Source: Octopus sinensis (taxonomy: Eukaryota). From it: DNA of 64,000 bases. Numbering within the stretch: the first letter of the stretch is position 1; every line of letters starts with the position of its first letter. Position numbers and translations under genes: made by a program. Location: NCBI RefSeq assembly GCF_006345805.1, contig NC_042998.1, positions 28,706,001-28,770,000 on the forward strand, in the 5' to 3' direction. The notes beneath the pieces were generated by a model. The model had not been told where the DNA came from, searched no databases, and worked only from the letters and a program-made list of their open reading frames with translations. Below, piece by piece: positions 390-62,440 of this stretch.

Positions 390-623
390 CCGGAGTAAAC
401 ACATAAATGTGAAACAAGGTGGAAAAAGAGTACTCAAATACCAGTGGTAGAGTAATATGCTTTATTTTAAGCAGCAGAAAATTCAACAAAATCTGTTACT
501 CTGAGTTTCTCGTTGCCGTTCATCAGACAGTTTTTGCTAGAATCTAGCAAAAACTGTCTGATGAACGGCAACGAGAAACTCAGAGTACAGATTTTGTTGA
601 ATTTTCTGCTGCTTAAAATAAAG
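390..623. mobile_element. Fold-back mini-element with hammerhead motif, flanked by (TA)n
   Basis: Inverted repeat 460-623 centred near 542, plus an unpaired tail at 390-459; second copy at 41680-41879. Confidence 0.85.
493..530 (-). ncRNA. Type I hammerhead ribozyme motif (mirror copy at 554-590 on +)
   Basis: CTGT-CTGATGA-ACGgcaaCGA-GAAA-CTCaGAG-TA-ACAG: stem I CTGT/ACAG, intact core, short stem III. Confidence 0.75.
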
Positions 624-650
<27 letters not shown>

Positions 651-10211: not shown

Positions 10212-11502
10212 CGAGGGGCGTTCAATAAGTAATGCCTCTGACCCACTTGCATTTGGTTGATCTAGCTGAAATTTGACATGTGCAATTATTTATATCTCTA
10301 TAGATTAAGTGGCAAATTACAGCTCTGAACTAATTGTGGTTTCTGATTTACAGGTGTTTGAACTGAGTCAAGTGTAAAATGGAGCCTGTTGAGTGTCGAG
10401 CAGTGATGCGGTTTTTGTATTTGAAAGGACGCACACCACGGGAGACTTTTGATGAAATGAAAGTAACTTATGGTGATGACGCCCCATCATATGACCTTGT
10501 AAAACGCTGGCATCGTGAATTCAAACATGGTCGGAACTTTGTGGAAACAGCTCCCAGATCTGGTCGCCCCCTTCTGCCATTGATGAGGCATCTGTCCGTC
10601 AAGTTGAGGCTGCTATTTTGGAAGATCGATGCATAACTATTCGCCAAACAGCCCATGAGGTCAAGATTAGTACCGGGTCTGTGGAAACTATCATTCATGA
10701 CCATTTGCATATGCAAAAGGTGTCTGCCAGATGGATTCCCAGGTTGCTCACACCTTTCCAGAAGCAAGAACGCGTCGAGTGCTCAAGGATGAATTTGGAG
10801 ATGTGCCAAGAAGATGAGTCAAAATTTTTCAAAAGACTGATTACACAGGATGAAACCTGGGTCCATCACGATGATCCAGAGACCAAAGCCCAGTCAATGC
10901 AGTGGAAGCACCGTGACTCACCCCCTCCAAAGAAGGCAAGGGTGCAGCCCTCCGCTGGCAAGGTCATGCTCACAGTCTTCTGGGACCAGGACGGAGTACT
11001 GATGACAGATTTCCTGGCAAAGGGTACCACAATTGCAGGAGCCTATTATGCTTCACTTTTGAGGAAATTAAGAGAAGCTATCAAAATCAAGAGGCGGGGC
11101 AAGATCAGCAAAGGCATCCTCCTCCTGCAGGACAACGCTCCGATCCACAACTCGCGTGTCGCCAGATCAGAAGCACAGGCGTGCGGCTATGAACTCATCC
11201 CCCATTCTCCCTACTCTCCTGACCTTGCACCCTCTGATTTTCACCTCTTCCCAGCCATGAAGTTGTTTTTGAAAGGAAAGCGTTTCCCAGATGATGCAGC
11301 CTTGATTTCTGAAGTCACGTCGTGGTTGGAGGACCAAGCTGGGGTCTTCTACAAAAACGGTCTTCAGAGCTACATCAAACGATGGGAGAAATGCGTAACT
11401 CTGGGTGGTTCCTATGTAGAAAAAGACTAATAACTGTGCCAAGTTTCGTTGCTCTACTGCTATGGGAAGTGGGTCCGGGCATTACTTATTGAACGCCCCT
11501 CG
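10212..11502 (+). mobile_element. Full-length mariner (DD34D) transposon, 1291 bp
   Basis: Perfect 25 bp TIR CGAGGGGCGTTCAATAAGTAATGCC, extending imperfectly to GACCCACTT; TA TSD at 10210-11 and 11503-04. Confidence 0.97.
10379..11430 (+). CDS. Mariner transposase, ~350 aa, with one frameshift at the C5 run 10567-10571
   Basis: HTH N-terminus, RSGRP, WIPRLLT, DETW, QDNAPIH, YSPDLAPSD; 34 residues between the second and third catalytic D. Confidence 0.92.
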
Positions 11503-17485: not shown

Positions 17486-18480
17486 CATCATCATCATCAT
17501 TTAGCATCCGTTCTCCATGCTAGCATGGGTTGGACGGTTCAACTGGGGTCTGTGAAGCTGGAAGGCTTCATCAGGCCCAGTCAGATCTGGCAGTGTTTCT
17601 ACGGCTGGATGCCCTTCCTAACGCCAACCACTCCGTGAGTGTAGTGGGTGCTTTTTACGTGCCACCTGCACAGGTGCCAGACAGAGCTGGCAAACGGCCA
17701 CGAACGGATGGTGCTTTTACGTGTCACCGGCACGGGGCCAGGCGAGGCTGGCAACGGACACGAACGGATGGTGCTTTTACGTGCCACCGGCACGGGGCCA
17801 GGCGAGGCTGGCAACGGACACGAACGGATGGTGCTTTTACGTGCCACCAACACGGGGGCCAGACAGAGCTGGCAAACGGCCACGAAACGGATGGTGCTTT
17901 TACGTGTCACCAGCACGGGGGCCAGGCGAGGCTGGCAATGGGCACGAACGGATGGTGCTTTTACATGCCACCAACATGGGGGCCAGACAGGGCTGGCAAA
18001 CGGCCACGAACGGATGGTGCTTTTACGTGTCACCGGCACGGGGGCCAGGCGAGGCTGGCAACGGACACGAACGGATGGTGCTTTTACATGTCACCGACAT
18101 GGGGGCCAGACAGGGCTGGCAAACGACCACGAACGGATGGTGCTTTTACGTGTCACCGGCATGGGGGCCAGACAGAGCTGGCAAACGGCCACGAACGGAT
18201 GGTGCTTTTACGTGTCACCGGCACGGTGGCCAGACGGAGCTGGCAAATGGCCACAAACGGATGGTACTTTTACGTGTCACCGGCACGGGGGCCAGGCCAG
18301 GCTGGCAACGAACACGAACGGATGGTGCTTTTACGTGCCACCTACACGGGGGCCAGACAGGGCTGGCGAACGGCTACGAACGGATGGTACTTTTACGTTT
18401 CACCTGCACGGGGGCCCTGATGTTGATCGACCTCAATTTGGTTTGATATTGATTTTGACTGTTCTCACTGGTCTTGCCGA
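17485..18480 (-). mobile_element. RTE 3' UTR with internal ~61 bp tandem expansion (~12 units, 17650-18420)
   Basis: (CAT)n tail at 17485; unit ACGAACGGATGGTGCTTTTACGTG(T/C)CACC...GGGGCCAG with two alternating variants. Confidence 0.85.
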
Positions 18481-18594
18481 TATATATATATGTTAAGATA
18501 TATTAAAATATATATATATATATATCTTAATATGTACCAAGTAGGATATGTCGTCATCAAGGTTTTACTTCACCTGTTTATACCTGTTTAATAT

Positions 18595-20620: not shown

Positions 20621-20916
20621 GTAGATAATAGGTTTCGTCACCCTTTATGATTCGATTTCTGGGTTGAGCAATATTCATTTTGTATATTTAAGATACCAAC
20701 ATAACAGTGATGCAAATTTTAAAACAAGAAATCAAAAATGCAAGCGCCAAAACTGGTCTGGATCCTACCTTTTCTTAGGAACTTTTGCTGGAAAGTTTCA
20801 GAGACAAGTTTATATTCTAGGTTAGCAAAGAGAAAATTGTTCATGCGTCTTATTCCTGTAAAGCAGAGATTGATTCATCAAATAAGATTTTTTTTTTTTA
20901 AATAACTATTGTCACT

Positions 20917-21351
20917 ATATTATTTACATTTGAAAGATATTTGTCCTCATCTTGTTTGTTGTTAACACAACATTTCGATTGATATACCCATCAGCTTTCA
21001 TCAGATGTTGTGGGGAAATTTCAAACCTGGGTTCTCATTCCTGAGGTATTTTTTGATGTTAATATAATTATAATAATTATTATTATTCTGGTCACTGCCT
21101 GGAATCATACTCGGAATCTTTGGGTTAGTAGCCCATACTCTTAACCACTATGCCTGAATAACAATAGTAATAATAATAATATCGAAAACTATCTTAGGAA
21201 TGAGAAACCAGGTTCGAAATTTCCCCCAAGACACCTGATGAAGGCTGGAGGGTATATCAGCCAAAATGTGTTAACAATGAACAAGATGAGGACAAATATC
21301 TGTCAAATGTAAATAATGTACATAATTACTCCTCTCTTAAATATAGAACTG
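20917..21351. mobile_element. Family H fold-back insertion with 13 bp TSD
   Basis: AACTATTGTCACT at 20904-20916 and 21352-21364; inverted arms each carry a decayed HHR. Confidence 0.85.
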
Positions 21352-36045: not shown

Positions 36046-36182
36046 CAGTAGTGTAGCTAGGATGTGTGCTGCTTGGAGCGACCCGTTCGTTTTCCACCCC
36101 AGACCCCACAAAAAACACATGTTGCCTACAGCAGACCCAAAAGTGTCCCCCACTACTTCCACCCGCTCCAGCTACGCTAGTG
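36046..36182. mobile_element. hAT-type MITE
   Basis: TIR CAGTAGTGTAGCTAGGA / TCCAGCTACGCTAGTG; 8 bp TSD GGTGTATA / GGTGTATT. Confidence 0.75.
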
Positions 36183-36573
36183 GGTGTATTTAGGTACTTG
36201 TGTTTATATCGCTGATGGCCAATAATTGTCTGCTGTGAATTAACATTTTTAATGCAACATTAAAATACTGATTAGGAATAATTATGCTCTGAGGAAGAAA
36301 AATATCAGTCAATGACTGATATTATTTTCTTCTGGCAAATACAGAAGAGACAACCTCTTCTGAATATGTTTCAATCCTTGACTATTCCATTTTTTTTTTT
36401 TTACCTATATTCATAAAATCTAGAACCACATTATCCAACATATTCTGTTTTAAGGCAGTGGCAAGCAATTTAGCTTCTATTTCCAGCAGGTCTAACAACT
36501 ATATAAAGGCTCTCTCATTGTTGAGTATATAAACAGTCTGGCTGCTTGTTTCTCTGGAGATTGTCAAAATGAT

Positions 36574-36629
36574 GTGGATGTCTCTGATGAGAACCCAGTA
36601 AGGTTTGAAAATTGATTAAGGATGTTCAT
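36574..36629 (+). ncRNA. Type I hammerhead motif
   Basis: GTGGATGTCT-CTGATGA-GAACCcagtaaGGTTT-GAAA-ATTGAT-TA-AGGATGTTCAT; element ends ~70 bp later in (TA)n. Confidence 0.65.
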
Positions 36630-37678
36630 CCTTTTTTCAGTCTGCAGAGAAATGGCAAAAATTTGCCCTGTTTATAATTATGCCATATGTTACGTGTATA
36701 TATATATATATATATATATGGGTGTGTGTGATTGTGTATAGAAGAATATATTAATAAAAAGAATTCCAACCTTGTCTGATTTTCACGTTTTATTTACAAT
36801 CTTATAATGATATATTATAAGATAATATATTATAATTGAATAAAATAAAATAAAATGAAATAGTAGAATGTTAAATATTCATTCTGATTGAACTAGTACT
36901 TTCATGCATTGAATTCTGCAATCTTCGGGTTCATGTAGTAGTGTTGACAGTCATGCTTCACAATTTTTGACTGTAGCAAGATGATTGATTCTGTGCTATA
37001 AATACAGCTGGGTAGGCTCCAGAGTGCTAGGTTTTGCAAACTGTATTCTGACCAATCAGTGTGTAGTATCACTCAATTACTTAAGCTGATTGGTTGGTTG
37101 AGCTGATTGGTTTAGGCATCACGCTTTGTTGGACATGTCAAAAGTCCTGTATCTTGACCCTGGCCGAAGCAGCAATTGTTGGGTTATTTTTAGAAATGTT
37201 GTAAATATCCTTTGTCAGAGATTTTTATATTTTTATATTTTTATATTTCAATTGTCATCATCATCATTGTCAGCACCTTAATTATTGTTGCTAGTGGTGA
37301 TGGTTATGGCAATAGAACTTTTAACCCTAAATAAGATAATTTTCTGCTATCTTCGTCTTGATCACCTTTAGTATTGTTGTTGTTGTTAGTGGTCATGGTC
37401 GTAGCAGTGGAAGTAATACCTCTAAGTATTATTATTATTATTATTGCTTATTTAGTTTGGGTTCGAATTTATCAATAAATTCTTTTCTCTGATTTTCCTC
37501 TCGATTTCACTTGGGCTGTGTAATTTGTAGAATGGAAATATTATATATATTTTCCGACCACATGTTGCTAGGTGGTTACTCAAAGGTATCTGACGGACCT
37601 CTGGGTCTCTAATCTGTTGCCGGTGTACACGTGAGCGTTCTAATAGTGCGTTTCCCGTCTGACCTACATATATTTCTA

Positions 37679-37909
37679 TATGTAGGTCAGACGGGAAACG
37701 CACTATTAGAACGCTCACGTGTACACCGGCAACAGATTAGAGACCCAGAGGTCCGTCAGATACCTTTGAGTAACCACCTAGCAACATGTGGTCGGAAAAT
37801 ATATATAATATTTCCATTCTACAAATTACACAGCCCAAGTGAAATCGAGAGGAAAATCAGAGAAAAGAATTTTATTGATAAATTCGAACCCAAACTAAAT
37901 AAGCAATAA
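37679..37909 (+). pseudogene. GIY-YIG endonuclease C-terminal half (PLE ORF end), mirrored on the minus strand
   Basis: YVGQTG...ERSRVHR...NHL...E.KIREKNFIDKFEPKLN matches the YIG, R..H, E and P.LN motifs. Confidence 0.85.
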
Positions 37910-38417
37910 TAATAATAATAATACTTAGAGGTATTACTTCCACTGCTACGACCATGACCACTAACAACAACAACAATACTAAAGGTGATCAAGACGAAGA
38001 TAGCAGGAAAATTATCTTATTTAGGGTTAAAAGTTCTATTGCCATAACCATCACCACTAGCAACAATAATTAAGGTGCTGACAATGATGATGATGACAAT
38101 TGAAATATAAAAATATAAAAATATAAAAATCTCTGACAAAGGATATTTACAACATTTCTAAAAATAACCCAACAATTGCTGCTTCGGCCAGGGTCAAGAT
38201 ACAGGACTTTTGACATGTCCAACAAAGCGTGATGCCTAAACCAATCAGCTCAACCAACCAATCAGCTTAAGTAATTGAGTGATACTACACACTGATTGGT
38301 CAGAATACAGTTTGCAAAACCTAGCACTCTGGAGCCTACCCAGCTGTATTTATAGCACAGAATCAATCATCTTGCTACAGTCAAAAATTGTGAAGCATGA
38401 CTGTCAACACTACTACA

Positions 38418-38462
38418 TGAACCCGAAGATTGCAGAATTCAATGCATGAAAGTACTAGTTCA
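38418..38462 (+). ncRNA. Minimal type I hammerhead in the PLE 3' region (mirror at 36889-36933 on -)
   Basis: TGAAC-CCGAAGA-tTGCAgaattcaaTGCAt-GAAA-GTAC-TA-GTTCA; palindromic stem III AGTACT; U4C core variant. Confidence 0.75.
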
Positions 38463-38620
38463 ATCAGAATGAATATTTAACATTCTACTATTTCATTTTA
38501 TTTTATTTTATTCAATTATAATATATTATCTTATAATATATCATTATAAGATTGTAAATAAAACGTGAAAATCAGACAAGGTTGGAATTCTTTTTATTAA
38601 TATATATATATATATATATA

Positions 38621-38970
38621 ATTAAAATCAAAAAGAGGGTGAAAAAATTGGATATTAATTTAATAACATCAATTTAAACACCAGTGGCCTAGCGTATAAA
38701 AGACTGAGATTCAGTAAATATTATTAATACACAACTATGAGAGAGAATCCACTATGTGGACGCTCTTATGCTAGATGTAGATACGCAAAGGGACTCAACC
38801 ACTAAGAATTGTTCTCAAGAAATAATTTAGCATGCTATGAATGTAAGCGAGCAGGACAAATGAAAAATAATTTCTTGAGAACAATTCTTAGTGGTTGAGT
38901 CTCTTTGCAGATCTATATCTAGCGTAAGAGCGTCCACATAGTGGATTCTCTCTCATAGTTGTGTATTAAT
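38621..38970. mobile_element. Fold-back mini-element in (TA)n with unpaired tail
   Basis: Inverted arms ~38721-38825 and 38870-38970; tail resembles that of 42548-42709. Confidence 0.75.
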
Positions 38971-39990
38971 ATATATATATATATATATATATGCATACAC
39001 CCTACTGTATAGAGATCCAAGCTGCTATCCCTACAAACGTTGATATGTAAAGTAGTTAAACTCAGTAGAATTTTGAACTTGTAAAGATTTCGTGATTTAT
39101 GGTATGAATCTAGTTGATGATGTTTTCGGTTTTCCCATCTATTTTATGCTTACAATGGAGCTTCCACATGCTCACTCAGTATGCTAGAAATAACACCCAA
39201 AAATCTTCTTAAATCATATATTGCCATCATAAAGGAAAAGAGGTCACACAGGGAGATATAGTTCTGGATATTCGTTTGAAGTTAAATGGTGAGAGTAGCA
39301 CAGCTGGAATGACTTTGATCAGAGGTCTGTTTGATCTGGGATGACCTGAGGCTAAGCAATGATGACAACAGCAGTGATAATTCCACAGCGACTACTGCTA
39401 GCAACAACACCAATAACAATAATGGTGATGACAAGAAGAAGAATACTGAAAATTTGGACAATATTAGTTTATTTTGATTTCATTTTGAATTAGCTTTAGT
39501 TTGGCTTTAACACAAAGTGAGGATGAAATATAAAAAGAAAGACAAAGATTGTGTGTGTGGAGTATAACTGATTGTATCAACCTCACAGTATGATTGATAT
39601 TTATTATCCTGATAAGACACAAAGCAAAAATAAAGCTTGCATGACTCCAACACTGATTCTTATAGAGGTACACAACTGAATATTGTATTGTAAGACATTT
39701 AAATTAATAACCACAACCATTTGGTTGGGGTTATAAGCTCAACGTTCTCAGAATGAAGAAAGCTTTCATCTTCCTAATTCTTTTATTATTTTGTTTGTTT
39801 CAGTCGCTTGACTGTGGCCATGATGGAGCACCGTATTTAGTCGAACAAATCAAGCTGAAGATTTATTCTTTGTAACCCTAATACTTATTGTATTGGTCTC
39901 TTAAGCTGAACTGCTAAGTTATGGGGACGTAAACACAGACACACAAACATACACATACATACGTACACACACACATATATATATATATAT

Positions 39991-40194: not shown

Positions 40195-40475
40195 TCTGTA
40201 AATGTAATATGTGACAATTATTCGGTAGCCACGATAAAACTCTGAGTTTTGGATGCCAGGGTGGAAATTCATGCCGCCATCTCTTCAGTTATCTGGCCAT
40301 CAGGAAAAATGCTATGAAAATGACTGTTATTCCCTTTGTATAACAGTCATTTTCATAGCATTTTTCCCGATGGCTGGATAACTGAAGAGATGGCAGCGTG
40401 GATTTCCACCTTGGCATCTGAAACTTTGAGTTGTATCATGGCTACCGAATAATTGTCACAAATTACATTTACAGA
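40195..40475. mobile_element. Fold-back mini-element with an HHR on each arm (40233-40293 on -, 40377-40437 on +)
   Basis: Consensus of the two arms: GATAA-CTGAAGA-GATG...CATC-GAAA-CTCaGAG-TT-TTATC; loop at ~40331-40339. Confidence 0.8.
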
Positions 40476-41679: not shown

Positions 41680-41879
41680 CCGGAGTAAGCACATAAATGT
41701 GAAACAAGGTGGAAAAAAGACTACTCAAATACCAGAGGTAGAGTAATATGCTTTATTTAAAAGCAGCAGAAATATAACAAAAGCTGTTACTCAGTTTCAC
41801 GTTCCTGATCGTTCGACGAACGGGAAAGTGAAACTCTGAGTAACAGCTTTTGTTATATTTCTGCTGCTTTTAAATAAAG
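41680..41879. mobile_element. Second copy of the 390-623 fold-back family
   Basis: Same tail; inverted repeat 41751-41879 folds back inside the HHR core (GACGA-ACGGGAAAGT-GAAA-CTCTGAG-TA-ACAG). Confidence 0.8.
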
Positions 41880-42547
41880 TATATATACATACATACATAC
41901 ATATGTACCTACATACAGGAGACTAAAAGTGTACGTACAATAAATATATATATATATATACACACACATACAAATTCATATAAATATACATGCATATATC
42001 CATTTAACCCTTTAGAATTTAAACTAGGCATATATGGCTCAAATATCCTTACTGGTTTATGTTGAAACCAGTCAGAACTGGTTTCTCATTCTACCCTACA
42101 ATAAACAATCCCATCCTCAAAATGGTGAAGCTATGAGATGATACACGATTAATCTAAACATGTGTGTGACACTTGACAACCGGTGTTGGTGTGTTTACAT
42201 CCCAGTAACTTAGTGGTTTGGCAAAGGAGATTGATAGAATAGGTATCAGGCTTAAAAAATGCACTGGGGTCAATTTGTTCAGCTAAAATTCTTGAAGGTG
42301 GCGTCCTTGTATGGGAGCAGTCTTACAACTGAAACAAGTAAGATATACATATAGGCACAAGAGTGGCTGTGTGGTAAGTAGCTTGCTTACAAACCACATG
42401 ATTCTGGGTTCAGTTCCACTGTGTGGCACCTTGGGCAAGTGTCTTCTACTATAGCCTCGGACCAACCAAAGCCTCGTGAGTGGATTTGGTAGACAGAAAC
42501 TGAAAGAATCCCATCGTGTGTGTGTATATATATATGTATATATATAT

Positions 42548-52940: not shown

Positions 52941-53177
52941 GTTCTATAATTAAGAGATGAGGAATTATGTACGTTATTTACATTTGACGGATATTTGTCC
53001 TAATCTTGTTTGTTGTTAACACAACGTTTCAGCTGTCATACCCACCAGCCTTCATCAGGTGTCTTGGGGAAATTTTGAACCTGGGTTCCCATTCCTAAGG
53101 TATTTTTCTATGTTGTTATTATTATTATTATTATTATTGTTATTGTTATTATTATTATTATTATTCCAGGCAGTGAA

Positions 53178-53211
<34 letters not shown>

Positions 53212-53358
53212 TCGAAAAATACTTTAGGAATGAGAACTCAGGTTTGAAATTTCCTCAAGACACCTGATGAAGGCTGGAGGGTATATCAGCTGAAACGTTG
53301 TGTTAACAACAAACAAGATGAGGACAAATATCTGTCAAATGTAAATAATGTAAATAAT
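52941..53358. mobile_element. Family H fold-back with intact HHRs on both strands (53018-53063 on -, 53259-53304 on +)
   Basis: GACAC-CTGATGA-A-GGCTG..CAGCT-GAAA-CG-TT-GTGTT on each arm; unpaired tail at 52941-52963. Confidence 0.85.
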
Positions 53359-53463
53359 ACCTTATTACTAAAGCCATTTTGAGCAAGAGCAGAAACTGCT
53401 TCATGGGAGTTCATCCTGCAGAAAATAACAGCCAGTTGTCCTTGAAATCACATTTTTTTTTTT

Positions 53464-61707: not shown

Positions 61708-62208
61708 GAAATAATATATTTCTAAATCTCTCAGAGAGATTTATGCAGTAACAGCATGATAAAGTGATAGCATGTTGTCAACTTAATGTGACAGTCCCCT
61801 GAAAGGGAAGAATGCTACTGTAATTTAGCCCTAGGAAACACCGTTCCCTGTTGGACTTGACACATTTCCTGTGTTCTTATGTTTTCAAAGTGGAGACAAG
61901 CACCTCCACCCAGCAAAACCAGTATCCAGAGACTAGTTTCAGAGTCCTTGCTCATCATCAGTCTGGAGTAGCATGGCTTGCTAGCTGCCAACACCTATCC
62001 ACCCTTGAAAAGATATGTGATGAGCAGTGACTCTGAAACTAGTCTCTGGATGCTGGATTTGCTGGCTGGAGGTGCTTGTCTCCACTTTGAAAACATAAGG
62101 ATACAGGATATGTGTCAACTCCAACAGGAAACGGTGTTTCCTAGGGCTAAATAACAGTAGCATTCTTCCCTTTCATGGGACTGTCACATTAAGTTGACAA
62201 CATGCTAT
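61708..62208. mobile_element. Fold-back HHR element with ~20 bp TSD
   Basis: Arms ~61765-61957 and 62017-62210; CATCTGTGAACTTG(A/C)AAATA at 61688 and 62209. Confidence 0.85.
61925..61967 (-). ncRNA. Type I hammerhead ribozyme motif, canonical core
   Basis: TCCAGA-CTGATGA-tGAGcaaggaCTCt-GAAA-CTAG-TC-TCTGGA; perfect 6 bp stem I, palindromic stem III, GUC triplet. Confidence 0.85.
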
Positions 62209-62440
62209 CATCTGTGAACTTGCAAATACCTTGTCTATTGCTACCACAGAGGCTCCTGATTCTCAGTACTAATTAGGCCCCACTTGTGCCCATCTAGTTC
62301 ACTCATCTAATCCTTCCATTATCACCCATATTATGCCCAGTGCTAATTCTTGCAGACTTCTGAATAGCTGCTTTGCTCAGAACTTTTCCCAGAGAACGTT
62401 AACTCTCTGCGGATGCTAACATTTCTACCAGCTCGCTGCC

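What the first reader, a model, noticed from the sequence alone, without database searches (positions are those of the whole stretch)
36746..38605. 1.86 kb near-perfect palindrome made from a Penelope GIY-YIG 3' end, with a hammerhead on both strands
Seen: ~930 bp arms with a 4 nt loop (TTTC). The fold point lies right at the YVG motif. I noticed only two 1 nt indels, one of which frameshifts the left ORF copy. An HHR lies ~510 nt after the stop codon. This ties the fold-back + HHR + (TA)n architecture directly to PLE coding sequence. Inference: a young insertion whose second arm arose by snap-back priming of truncated cDNA. If transcribed it would give ~930 bp of dsRNA, a strong ADAR or Dicer substrate in an animal group known for heavy A-to-I editing.
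Basis: partly seen in the sequence, partly recalled or inferred. Interest (0 to 1): 0.82.

Follow-up and report, generated by a model that had tools for sequence, protein, structure and literature searches.

The report
Fold-back insertion of young Penelope retrotransposon
The 1.86 kb mirror sequence is two head-to-head copies of the tail end of a young Penelope-type jumping gene, likely made when its DNA copy folded back and copied itself during insertion; this kind of insertion is already described, and it is common in this genome.

Summary
The palindrome is in the assembly as described: arms 36746-37672 and 37677-38605, loop TTTC, two 1-nt gaps, no substitutions. It is a 5'-truncated, head-to-head insertion of a young endonuclease-positive Penelope-like element (PLE, Neptune/Nematis type) in a (TA)n run. 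Only the left arm carries the PLE's optional 26-nt tail. Such inverted copies with a palindromic junction, a one-sided tail and hammerheads on opposite strands are published PLE hallmarks, and this scan found the same before in another genome (e1-7788964). Census in this genome: 31 of 84 loci of the family are head-to-head; 9 of 30 scored junctions are near-symmetric (about 1 expected). Both arms here share an 8-nt expansion seen in 0 of 94 other arms, so they come from one template. Snap-back on first-strand cDNA is the best mechanism (0.65), but only 1 nt of homology supports it at this junction, and four other loci need a second RNA-primed event. The fold at YVG is coincidental. The hammerhead has a variant core. 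No independent read across the fold was obtained. The dsRNA/ADAR idea is untested, and the element's own promoters point outward. Ordinary element, useful mechanistic data set.

The parts
36697..36719 (.). (TA)n run at the left end; inferred target and priming site of first-strand cDNA
   Evidence: sequence; (TA)n-like runs follow the 3' ends of the family copies printed
36720..36745 (-). optional PLE 'tail' (26 nt), present on the left arm only
   Evidence: 71 tailed, 38 untailed, 11 other and 2 run-off of 122 block ends
36746..37677 (-). left arm: 3' end of the PLE (C-terminal half of GIY-YIG, 3' UTR/pLTR); follows family sequence through the loop to 37677; two single bases missing
36889..36933 (-). 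minimal type I hammerhead motif, left copy
   Evidence: core at 36928
36974..37004 (-). TATA box and inferred start site, left copy, facing outward (leftward)
   Evidence: mirror of the right copy
37673..37676 (.). 4-nt loop TTTC, closed by one T:A pair of microhomology (37677 with 37672)
37677..38605 (+). right arm: 3' end of the PLE without the tail; matches the family at both gap positions
37677..37909 (+). ORF remnant, 77 aa of the GIY-YIG C-terminus from YVG to the stop; lacks the LIY motif and the CxxC, so it cannot encode an active nuclease (inference)
   Evidence: 98.7% to residues 699-775 of P0001
38103..38110 (+). extra AAATATAA unit shared by both arms and by 0 of 94 other arms
38241..38299 (+). 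three CCAAT-like boxes in the pLTR (two forward, one reverse); label from general knowledge
   Evidence: sequence
38347..38377 (+). TATA box (38347-38354) and inferred start site (about 38377), facing outward (rightward)
   Evidence: five separate insertions have 5' ends within 4 nt of this site, 30 nt after the TATA box
38418..38462 (+). minimal type I hammerhead motif, right copy: 5-bp stem I, variant core CCGAAGA, 4-bp stem II over a U-U mismatch, palindromic stem III; predicted cut after 38457
   Evidence: not found by Rfam; not the lowest-energy monomer fold
38600..38619 (.). (TA)n run at the right end; a target-site duplication cannot be read inside it
   Evidence: sequence; the flank 38985-39480 beyond it has one full-length match in the assembly

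Best explanation
This is a recent, 5'-truncated, head-to-head insertion of a Neptune/Nematis-type Penelope-like retrotransposon in a (TA)n run, whose second arm was likely made by the first-strand cDNA folding back and copying itself. Shown: identity of the element, the two different natural 3' ends, the 5-nt offset at the fold, one template for both arms, and an excess of near-symmetric junctions in the family. Inferred order of events: the GIY-YIG nuclease nicks the (TA)n; reverse transcription starts at the tailed start site and makes the window's + strand from 36720 to 37677; it stops inside the nuclease gene; the 3' T pairs with A37672 across a 4-nt loop; synthesis (by the element's RT or a host repair polymerase, not distinguished) copies the cDNA back to the element's own AT-rich end and joins the other target end through TA repeats, leaving the tail uncopied; the opposite strand is filled in by repair. 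The product is a dead insert: no RT, half a nuclease. Its two promoters face outward, so it would make a 930-bp hairpin RNA only by read-through, and in that hairpin the single sense hammerhead would be base-paired and unable to fold.
For: Family identity: RT plus C-terminal GIY-YIG, linker CX4CX2C, CxxC inside the nuclease core. One template: both arms share 2 substitutions (found in 1 of 28 top copies), a 5-nt expansion (0 of 101 arms in the large loci, 3 other places known) and an 8-nt expansion (0 of 94). Geometry: the right arm is a strict subset of the left arm at both ends. Family census: 31 of 84 loci are head-to-head (30, plus the older L121); 9 of 30 junctions have offsets of 50 nt or less against a permutation mean of 0.99, maximum 6, 0 of 20,000 reaching 9. 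L122 folds at a natural 5-bp stem-loop; L039 and L157, and a different PLE family in L222, carry duplicated junction segments; L063 folds at the apparent RNA 5' end. Published reading of such junction palindromes as self-priming (PMC3846280, passages).
Against: Only 1 nt of homology at this fold, and no stable hairpin is predicted until 5 more nt are added. Four loci (L115, L141, L156, L158) have an arm that cannot be a copy of the other arm's cDNA (tail contiguous on the shorter arm only), so a second RNA-primed event exists in this family and could also explain this locus. Shared rare alleles are as frequent in asymmetric inversions and in tandem units (10 of 20 and 5 of 12 loci), so they show one template, not which kind. 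The four short-armed fold-backs are all old copies (15-28 substitutions per kb) and may be decayed palindromes, not aborted snap-backs. No independent read spans the fold.
Confidence: 0.65

Rival explanations
1. Double priming: both target strands are nicked and each primes reverse transcription on the same RNA (one at the tailed, one at the untailed start site); both cDNAs stop at the same broken RNA end and are joined head to head.
For: An anole PLE protein cuts and extends both strands, starts at two adjacent RNA sites that match tailed and untailed ends, and is predicted to be a dimer (PMC11167929). The two arms here end at exactly those two kinds of end. L115, L141, L156 and L158 need such an event. 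It explains shared private variants equally well.
Against: It needs both cDNAs to stop within a few bases of each other; fold points at a native stem-loop (L122) and duplicated junction segments (L039, L157, L222) fit self-priming more simply. In this locus nothing in the right arm is missing from the left arm.
Confidence: 0.2
2. Self-priming on an antisense RNA before integration, as proposed for rotifer PLEs: an antisense transcript folds at its 3' end, is extended into a hairpin and is then integrated.
For: Proposed in PMC3846280 (passages); gives the same head-to-head geometry.
Against: 5' ends of five insertions fall at a sense start site 30 nt after a TATA box, one of them a fold-back, which points to sense RNA templates. 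No antisense transcript was examined.
Confidence: 0.05
3. Assembly artefact: a fold-back long read, possibly joined to another copy of the family, created the second arm.
For: No independent read or contig was seen across the fold or the left junction. Arms have no substitutions. Single-base losses are frequent in this assembly's copies (72 of 90 coding segments lack at least one base, median 2.8 per kb). All five long symmetric palindromes of the family are among the least diverged copies.
Against: The mirror stops at the element's ends and the flanks differ, here and at L039, L122, L157. The arms end at two different natural termini. Older fold-backs with diverged arms (76-97% identical) lie in the same window and at L121, which fold-back reads cannot produce. 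The 7 other near-perfect palindromes in about 615 kb of flank all have similar sequence in other fetched loci, most end in TA runs, and 4 carry a CUGANGA..GAAA core; none is a mirror of unique DNA.
Confidence: 0.07
4. Later rearrangement: a single truncated copy was duplicated in inverted form by replication template switching, or two older arms were homogenised by gene conversion.
For: Would also give identical arms with shared private variants.
Against: The duplication would have to end exactly at the element's untailed terminus; the same pattern recurs at many loci and in several PLE families; the arms are close to the family's commonest state.
Confidence: 0.03

Closest known systems
Canonical endonuclease-positive PLE insertion unit with an adjacent inverted 5'-truncated copy and one-sided tail (Craig et al. 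2021, PMC8557442, Fig. 2 legend and text)
   Same: Inverted truncated copy at the 5' end, tail on one end only, partial tandems in other copies, (TA)n targets, linker CX2-5CxxC and CCHH-type nuclease core.
   Different: Here both copies are truncated at nearly the same base, so the whole insert is one palindrome; the tail is 26 nt plus an AT run, against 30-40 bp quoted.
Adineta vaga Penelope elements with palindromes at the inverted junction, read as self-priming (Arkhipova et al. 2013, PMC3846280)
   Same: Head-to-head inverted copies, palindromic junction, optional tail, TATA plus initiator in the pLTR.
   Different: There the elements are low-copy and the authors favour an antisense RNA template; here a young family of about 168 exact-match sites allows counting, and 5' ends at a sense start site favour cDNA as the folded strand.
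Minimal hammerheads of metazoan PLE pLTRs, including dual motifs on opposite strands 100-700 bp apart (Cervera and De la Pena 2014, PMC4209133)
   Same: Type I layout, 5-bp stem I, palindromic stem III suited to dimer formation, motif on both strands.
   Different: Core reads CCGAAGA, not CUGANGA, and the G10.1-C11.1 pair is replaced by U-U; the motifs are 1.5 kb apart; cleavage is untested.
Anole Poseidon element PAc, in vitro (Frangieh et al. 2024, PMC11167929)
   Same: Two adjacent 3' ends (tailed, untailed), AT-rich targets, hammerhead in the pLTR.
   Different: Different clade (Penelope/Poseidon lacks the linker zinc finger); the parts read do not report fold-back products.
LINE-1 twin priming and L1-associated foldback junctions (PMC11702581, passages)
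   Same: Inversion with short microhomology; cDNA self-annealing into a hairpin is one of their models.
   Different: L1 twin priming inverts a non-overlapping 5' part; here the same segment is duplicated, and the chromosome is not rearranged beyond the insert as far as the assembly shows.

Membership tests
Canonical endonuclease-positive PLE | Telomerase-related RT with GxKF, DKG and YxDD motifs upstream of the nuclease | tested here: met
   In longer copies of the family (KGLKF, ADKG, YLDD; Pfam RVT_1 E 2.4e-06, 27.9 bits, below the 29.6 cut-off). Absent from the window copy, which is truncated.
Canonical endonuclease-positive PLE | [quoted passage not shown] | tested here: met
   LIYCIKCPNCEEIYVGQT at P0001 687-704; Pfam GIY-YIG above cut-off in 3 of 3 longer copies; window fragment alone below cut-off.
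Canonical endonuclease-positive PLE | Pseudo-LTRs from partial tandems | tested here: met
   Tandem period about 4.27 kb in L032, L033, L035, L043, L045, L048.
Canonical endonuclease-positive PLE | Optional tail at one end | tested here: met
   71 tailed and 38 untailed of 122 block ends; left arm tailed, right arm not.
Canonical endonuclease-positive PLE | Hammerhead motif in the pLTR | tested here: met
   Minimal motif with variant core at 38418-38462 and mirror; 0 hits in 18 of 20 shuffles of the window; Rfam 0. Activity not testable here.
Canonical endonuclease-positive PLE | Target-site duplication | tested here: inconclusive
   Both ends lie in (TA)n, where a duplication cannot be read.
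Neptune or Nematis clade | CX2-5CxxC linker between RT and nuclease | tested here: met
   CNDSRCGTC at P0001 650-658; present in 84 of 120 listed homologues, all 84 that hold the nuclease core. Criterion from PMC8557442.
Neptune versus Nematis | Placement in an RT tree with named references | not tested
   No clade-named reference sequences were returned by the tools.
Naiad/Chlamys or Hydra PLE | N-terminal nuclease (Naiad/Chlamys); loss of CCHH and DKT motif (Hydra) | tested here: not met
   Nuclease is C-terminal, CxxC and DKG present.
Non-LTR retrozyme | Short (150-450 bp) head-to-tail non-coding repeats with a hammerhead | tested here: not met
   Head-to-head, 930-bp arms, coding remnant; definition from PMC7229834 passages.
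MITE / foldback DNA transposon | Fixed terminal inverted repeats and a constant family structure (recalled definition) | tested here: not met
   The two ends differ, this fold occurs once in the genome, and fold points vary among copies.

The most novel reading that the evidence does not exclude
In this octopus-type genome several PLE families routinely write 0.2-7.6 kb near-perfect palindromes by cDNA snap-back with repeated slip-and-reprime steps, alongside a second, double-priming route; these fold-backs are the main source of the unusually high long-dsRNA potential and hyper-editing reported for octopus, and the longest ones are short-lived.
Probability: 0.2. Interest if true: 0.6.

Novelty: new member of a known kind. 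Interest (0 to 1): 0.3.

Why it matters
The locus itself is a dead transposon fragment of a described kind. Its value is as one of about 30 inverted insertions of a young family whose junctions can be read at base level. How PLEs make their inverted and tandem structures is stated as unresolved in PMC8557442, and this set separates a symmetric class (self-priming) from loci that need a second RNA priming, which can be tested with the in vitro system of PMC11167929. Separately, octopus has an exceptionally high share of dsRNA-forming loci and hyper-editing (PMC5625713); PLE fold-backs are a candidate source (8 fold-backs, 3,979 of 64,000 bases in this window, at least 5 with hammerhead-like cores), but nothing here shows that they are transcribed or edited.

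Tried and rejected
Independent support for the fold: 4 runs were laid on 36150-37740. The raw-read run X21 gave 0 laid reads (no test); contigs of X1, X2, X3 covered the left flank and the family but none of the listed pieces crossed the fold or the left junction, 36688-36869 was skipped as repeat, and 3,332 pieces were not shown: inconclusive. No RNA holder was on record. No second haplotype of the right flank is in the assembly, so no empty site could be seen. A truncation hotspot near the fold (5' ends at reference 3927-3938 in L018, L031, L117, L141 and here) was considered and dropped: the searches required sequence just downstream, which enriches such ends; this was judged by a rough estimate, not a formal test. 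'Inverted copies are younger than plain copies' was not supported (Mann-Whitney p 0.99; L121 was classed as plain in that call and found inverted afterwards). Short-armed fold-backs as proof of aborted snap-back: weakened, all four are old copies. The background figure (first 1,500 pairs only) was replaced by the all-pairs figure. The first palindrome control missed loci through a filter error and was repeated; it did not show palindromes confined to this family, since 7 others were found. Rfam, monomer folding of the hammerhead (z 0.3) and the bacterial promoter scan were uninformative. Paper searches for octopus + palindrome + Penelope (2 papers, both on editing), octopus + Penelope + retrotransposon and Penelope with snap-back/foldback/twin priming terms showed no paper on PLE palindromes in octopus; one search returned nothing. 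The library lacks most subscription papers, and no supplements were read; the supplements of PMC8557442 and PMC13282606 may already list this family.

Full report
Observation. The window holds a palindrome from 36746 to 38605 with a TTTC loop; the arms differ only by two single bases, both missing from the left arm. It is the longest fold-back in the window and this fold occurs once in the genome. The right arm reads as the last 77 codons of a GIY-YIG domain, stop at 37907-37909, then a 3' region with a hammerhead-like motif 514 nt later. Two things were missed: the left arm carries 26 extra nt (36720-36745) before its (TA)n, and the loop with T37677 is family sequence on the minus strand (contigs of run X1 leave the window at 37677 and go on with family sequence).

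Host. A 2.72 Gb assembly whose closest named protein relatives are from bivalves. I read it as an octopus from its size and a SINE I recall; no call names the species.

The element. A search of the own genome gave 1,511 candidates, 40 scored, at 96-100% identity; a 27-base exact pattern has 168 matches. Longer copies have a unit of about 4.27 kb in partial tandems and encode RT followed by GIY-YIG, with GxKF, DKG, YLDD, a CX4CX2C linker and CxxC in the nuclease core. By the criteria in PMC8557442 (passages) this is a canonical endonuclease-positive PLE of the Neptune or Nematis type; the two were not separated. Copies end either at TTATTAATATAT or 26 nt further at the tail, followed by TA-rich runs: 71 tailed, 38 untailed, 11 other, 2 run-off of 122 ends. 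The window's left arm has the tailed end, the right arm the untailed one. The fold cuts the nuclease between its two signature motifs, so the insert cannot make an active protein (inference).

Age and template. Against 28 best-scoring copies both arms differ from the commonest letters by the same 2 substitutions (shared with L003 only) and the same 8-nt and 5-nt repeat expansions. In the larger set the 8-nt expansion is in 0 of 94 other arms and the 5-nt one in 0 of 101, though three other places carry the latter. The arms therefore come from one template. With no substitution between arms and the calibration in PMC13282606 (JC 0.065 for 18 million years; passages), my estimate of the 95% upper age is about 0.45 million years, if no conversion occurred. 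The two left-arm gaps look like the sporadic single-base losses seen throughout these copies (72 of 90 coding segments) and may be consensus errors.

Census. The first 100 of the 168 pattern matches fall in 84 loci, all fetched. Thirty are head-to-head inversions and the older L121 is a 31st; without the window's own locus, 30 of 83. Seven further loci from the score-ranked search showed none and are not in these counts. Of the 30 scored junctions 9 have the two truncation points within 50 nt; shuffling the ends gives a mean of 0.99 and never 9 in 20,000 trials. Five of the 9 have two long arms (window, L039, L122, L129, L157; 1.9-7.6 kb) and are all young; four have a 43-102 nt second arm and are all old. 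Fold points lie all along the unit, so the position at YVG carries no meaning. Junction homology is 1-12 nt; L122 folds at a native stem-loop; L039, L157 and a different PLE family in L222 have duplicated junction segments. Opposite arms of a locus share a rare allele in 10 of 20 loci with enough overlap, against 125 of 7,896 between-locus pairs; tandem units do so in 5 of 12. Against a single mechanism: in L115, L141, L156 and L158 the shorter arm has a contiguous tail that the longer arm's cDNA could not supply, so a second priming on RNA also occurs.

Promoter and hammerhead. Among 60 partly overlapping loci examined, five separate insertions (L053, L063, L068, L078, L201) begin within 4 nt of window position 38377, 30 nt after TATTTATA and downstream of three CCAAT-like boxes; L063 folds back there with a 3-nt loop. 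I read this as the start site and as fold-back after run-off from the RNA end. In the window both copies of this promoter face away from the centre. The hammerhead has a 5-bp stem I and a palindromic stem III like the minimal PLE motifs of PMC4209133 (parts 1-2 of 4 read), but a CCGAAGA core and a U-U pair at the base of stem II; a U-U there is reported for an axolotl hammerhead with weak monomer activity (PMC7229834, passages). The scan found 6 motifs in the window against 0 in 18 of 20 shuffles. Activity is unknown.

Mechanism. Best reading (0.65): target-primed reverse transcription from the left (TA)n at the tailed site, a stop at 37677, fold-back on one T:A pair, copying to the untailed end, joining through TA repeats. 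The weak point is the single base of homology (no stable hairpin), which requires an enzyme to hold the primer. Rival (0.2): two primings on one RNA, as allowed by the in vitro behaviour of the anole element (PMC11167929, parts 1-2 of 4 read). Antisense-RNA self-priming (0.05), artefact (0.07) and later rearrangement (0.03) are less likely. On the artefact: no independent read was obtained and the right flank is single in the assembly; but the mirror stops at the element's ends, the ends are two different natural termini, and older fold-backs with arms 76-97% identical lie in the same window.

Comparison with what is known. PMC8557442 (passages) describes the adjacent inverted 5'-truncated copy, the one-sided tail and (TA)n targeting as typical. 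PMC3846280 (passages) describes palindromes at the inverted junction and reads them as self-priming. PMC4209133 notes dual hammerheads on opposite strands. PMC11702581 (passages) gives the LINE-1 twin-priming and foldback models. bioRxiv 10.64898/2026.07.22.740005 (passages) added nothing needed. Searches found no earlier notes for this genome or sequence. The finding is a new member of a known kind.

dsRNA. PMC5625713 (passages) reports an exceptionally high fraction of long dsRNA-forming loci and strong hyper-editing in octopus, and names a palindromic repeat as a cause only for the frog in the passages seen. PLE fold-backs are a plausible source, but no transcript, editing or small RNA evidence was obtained for this locus, no host exon was recognised in the window's ORF list, and the element's own promoters would not transcribe the hairpin.

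Verdict. Observation confirmed in the assembly; interpretation partly supported; interest 0.3.

Noticed in passing
window 455-628, 41746-41884: Two short fold-backs of a related repeat family, arms 97% and 89% identical; 455-628 has a hammerhead core in both arms; both have the same extra sequence on one side and a TA-rich run on the other, like a one-sided PLE tail.
   Followed up: partly
window 20916-21320, 52957-53365, 61765-62210: Older fold-backs (arms 76-87% identical) with hammerhead-like cores; the first two belong to one family.
   Followed up: partly
window 38715-38979, 40195-40475: Fold-backs with 86-88% identical arms and no hammerhead core found; the first lies 95 nt right of the finding and ends in (TA)n.
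   Followed up: no
window 36474-36693: The left flank is itself a high-depth repeat with a degenerate hammerhead core at 36584 about 110 nt before the (TA)n; the young element probably inserted into the TA run at the end of an older PLE remnant.
   Followed up: partly
window 10519-11430 (+): Open 303-codon mariner-type transposase frame (Pfam Transposase_1, E 9e-25).
   Followed up: partly
window 17524-18496: GC-rich minisatellite with long open frames on both strands.
   Followed up: no
L063/L064 (G000:C4:52929309-52929743 and ends): 445-bp perfect fold-back of the same family, folded at the apparent transcription start with a 3-nt loop.
   Followed up: yes
L222:2866-5001: At least 2.1 kb palindrome (98%) of a different PLE family with a 14-nt duplication at the fold.
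   Followed up: partly
L146:7817-9387 and L172:152-1485: 1.3-1.6 kb palindromes of one further family with a hammerhead core, (TA)n on one side and a shared extra sequence on the other.
   Followed up: partly
L180:4930-4963; L039:3667-3684; L157:4116-4137: Junction inserts made of short repeats copied from the adjacent element sequence, suggesting repeated slip-and-reprime by the RT or a repair polymerase.
   Followed up: partly
L039, L122, L129, L157, window versus L154, L167, L169, L174: All five long symmetric palindromes are young (2.2 substitutions per kb or fewer) and all four short-armed ones old (15-28 per kb); long palindromes may decay quickly. Small numbers.
   Followed up: partly
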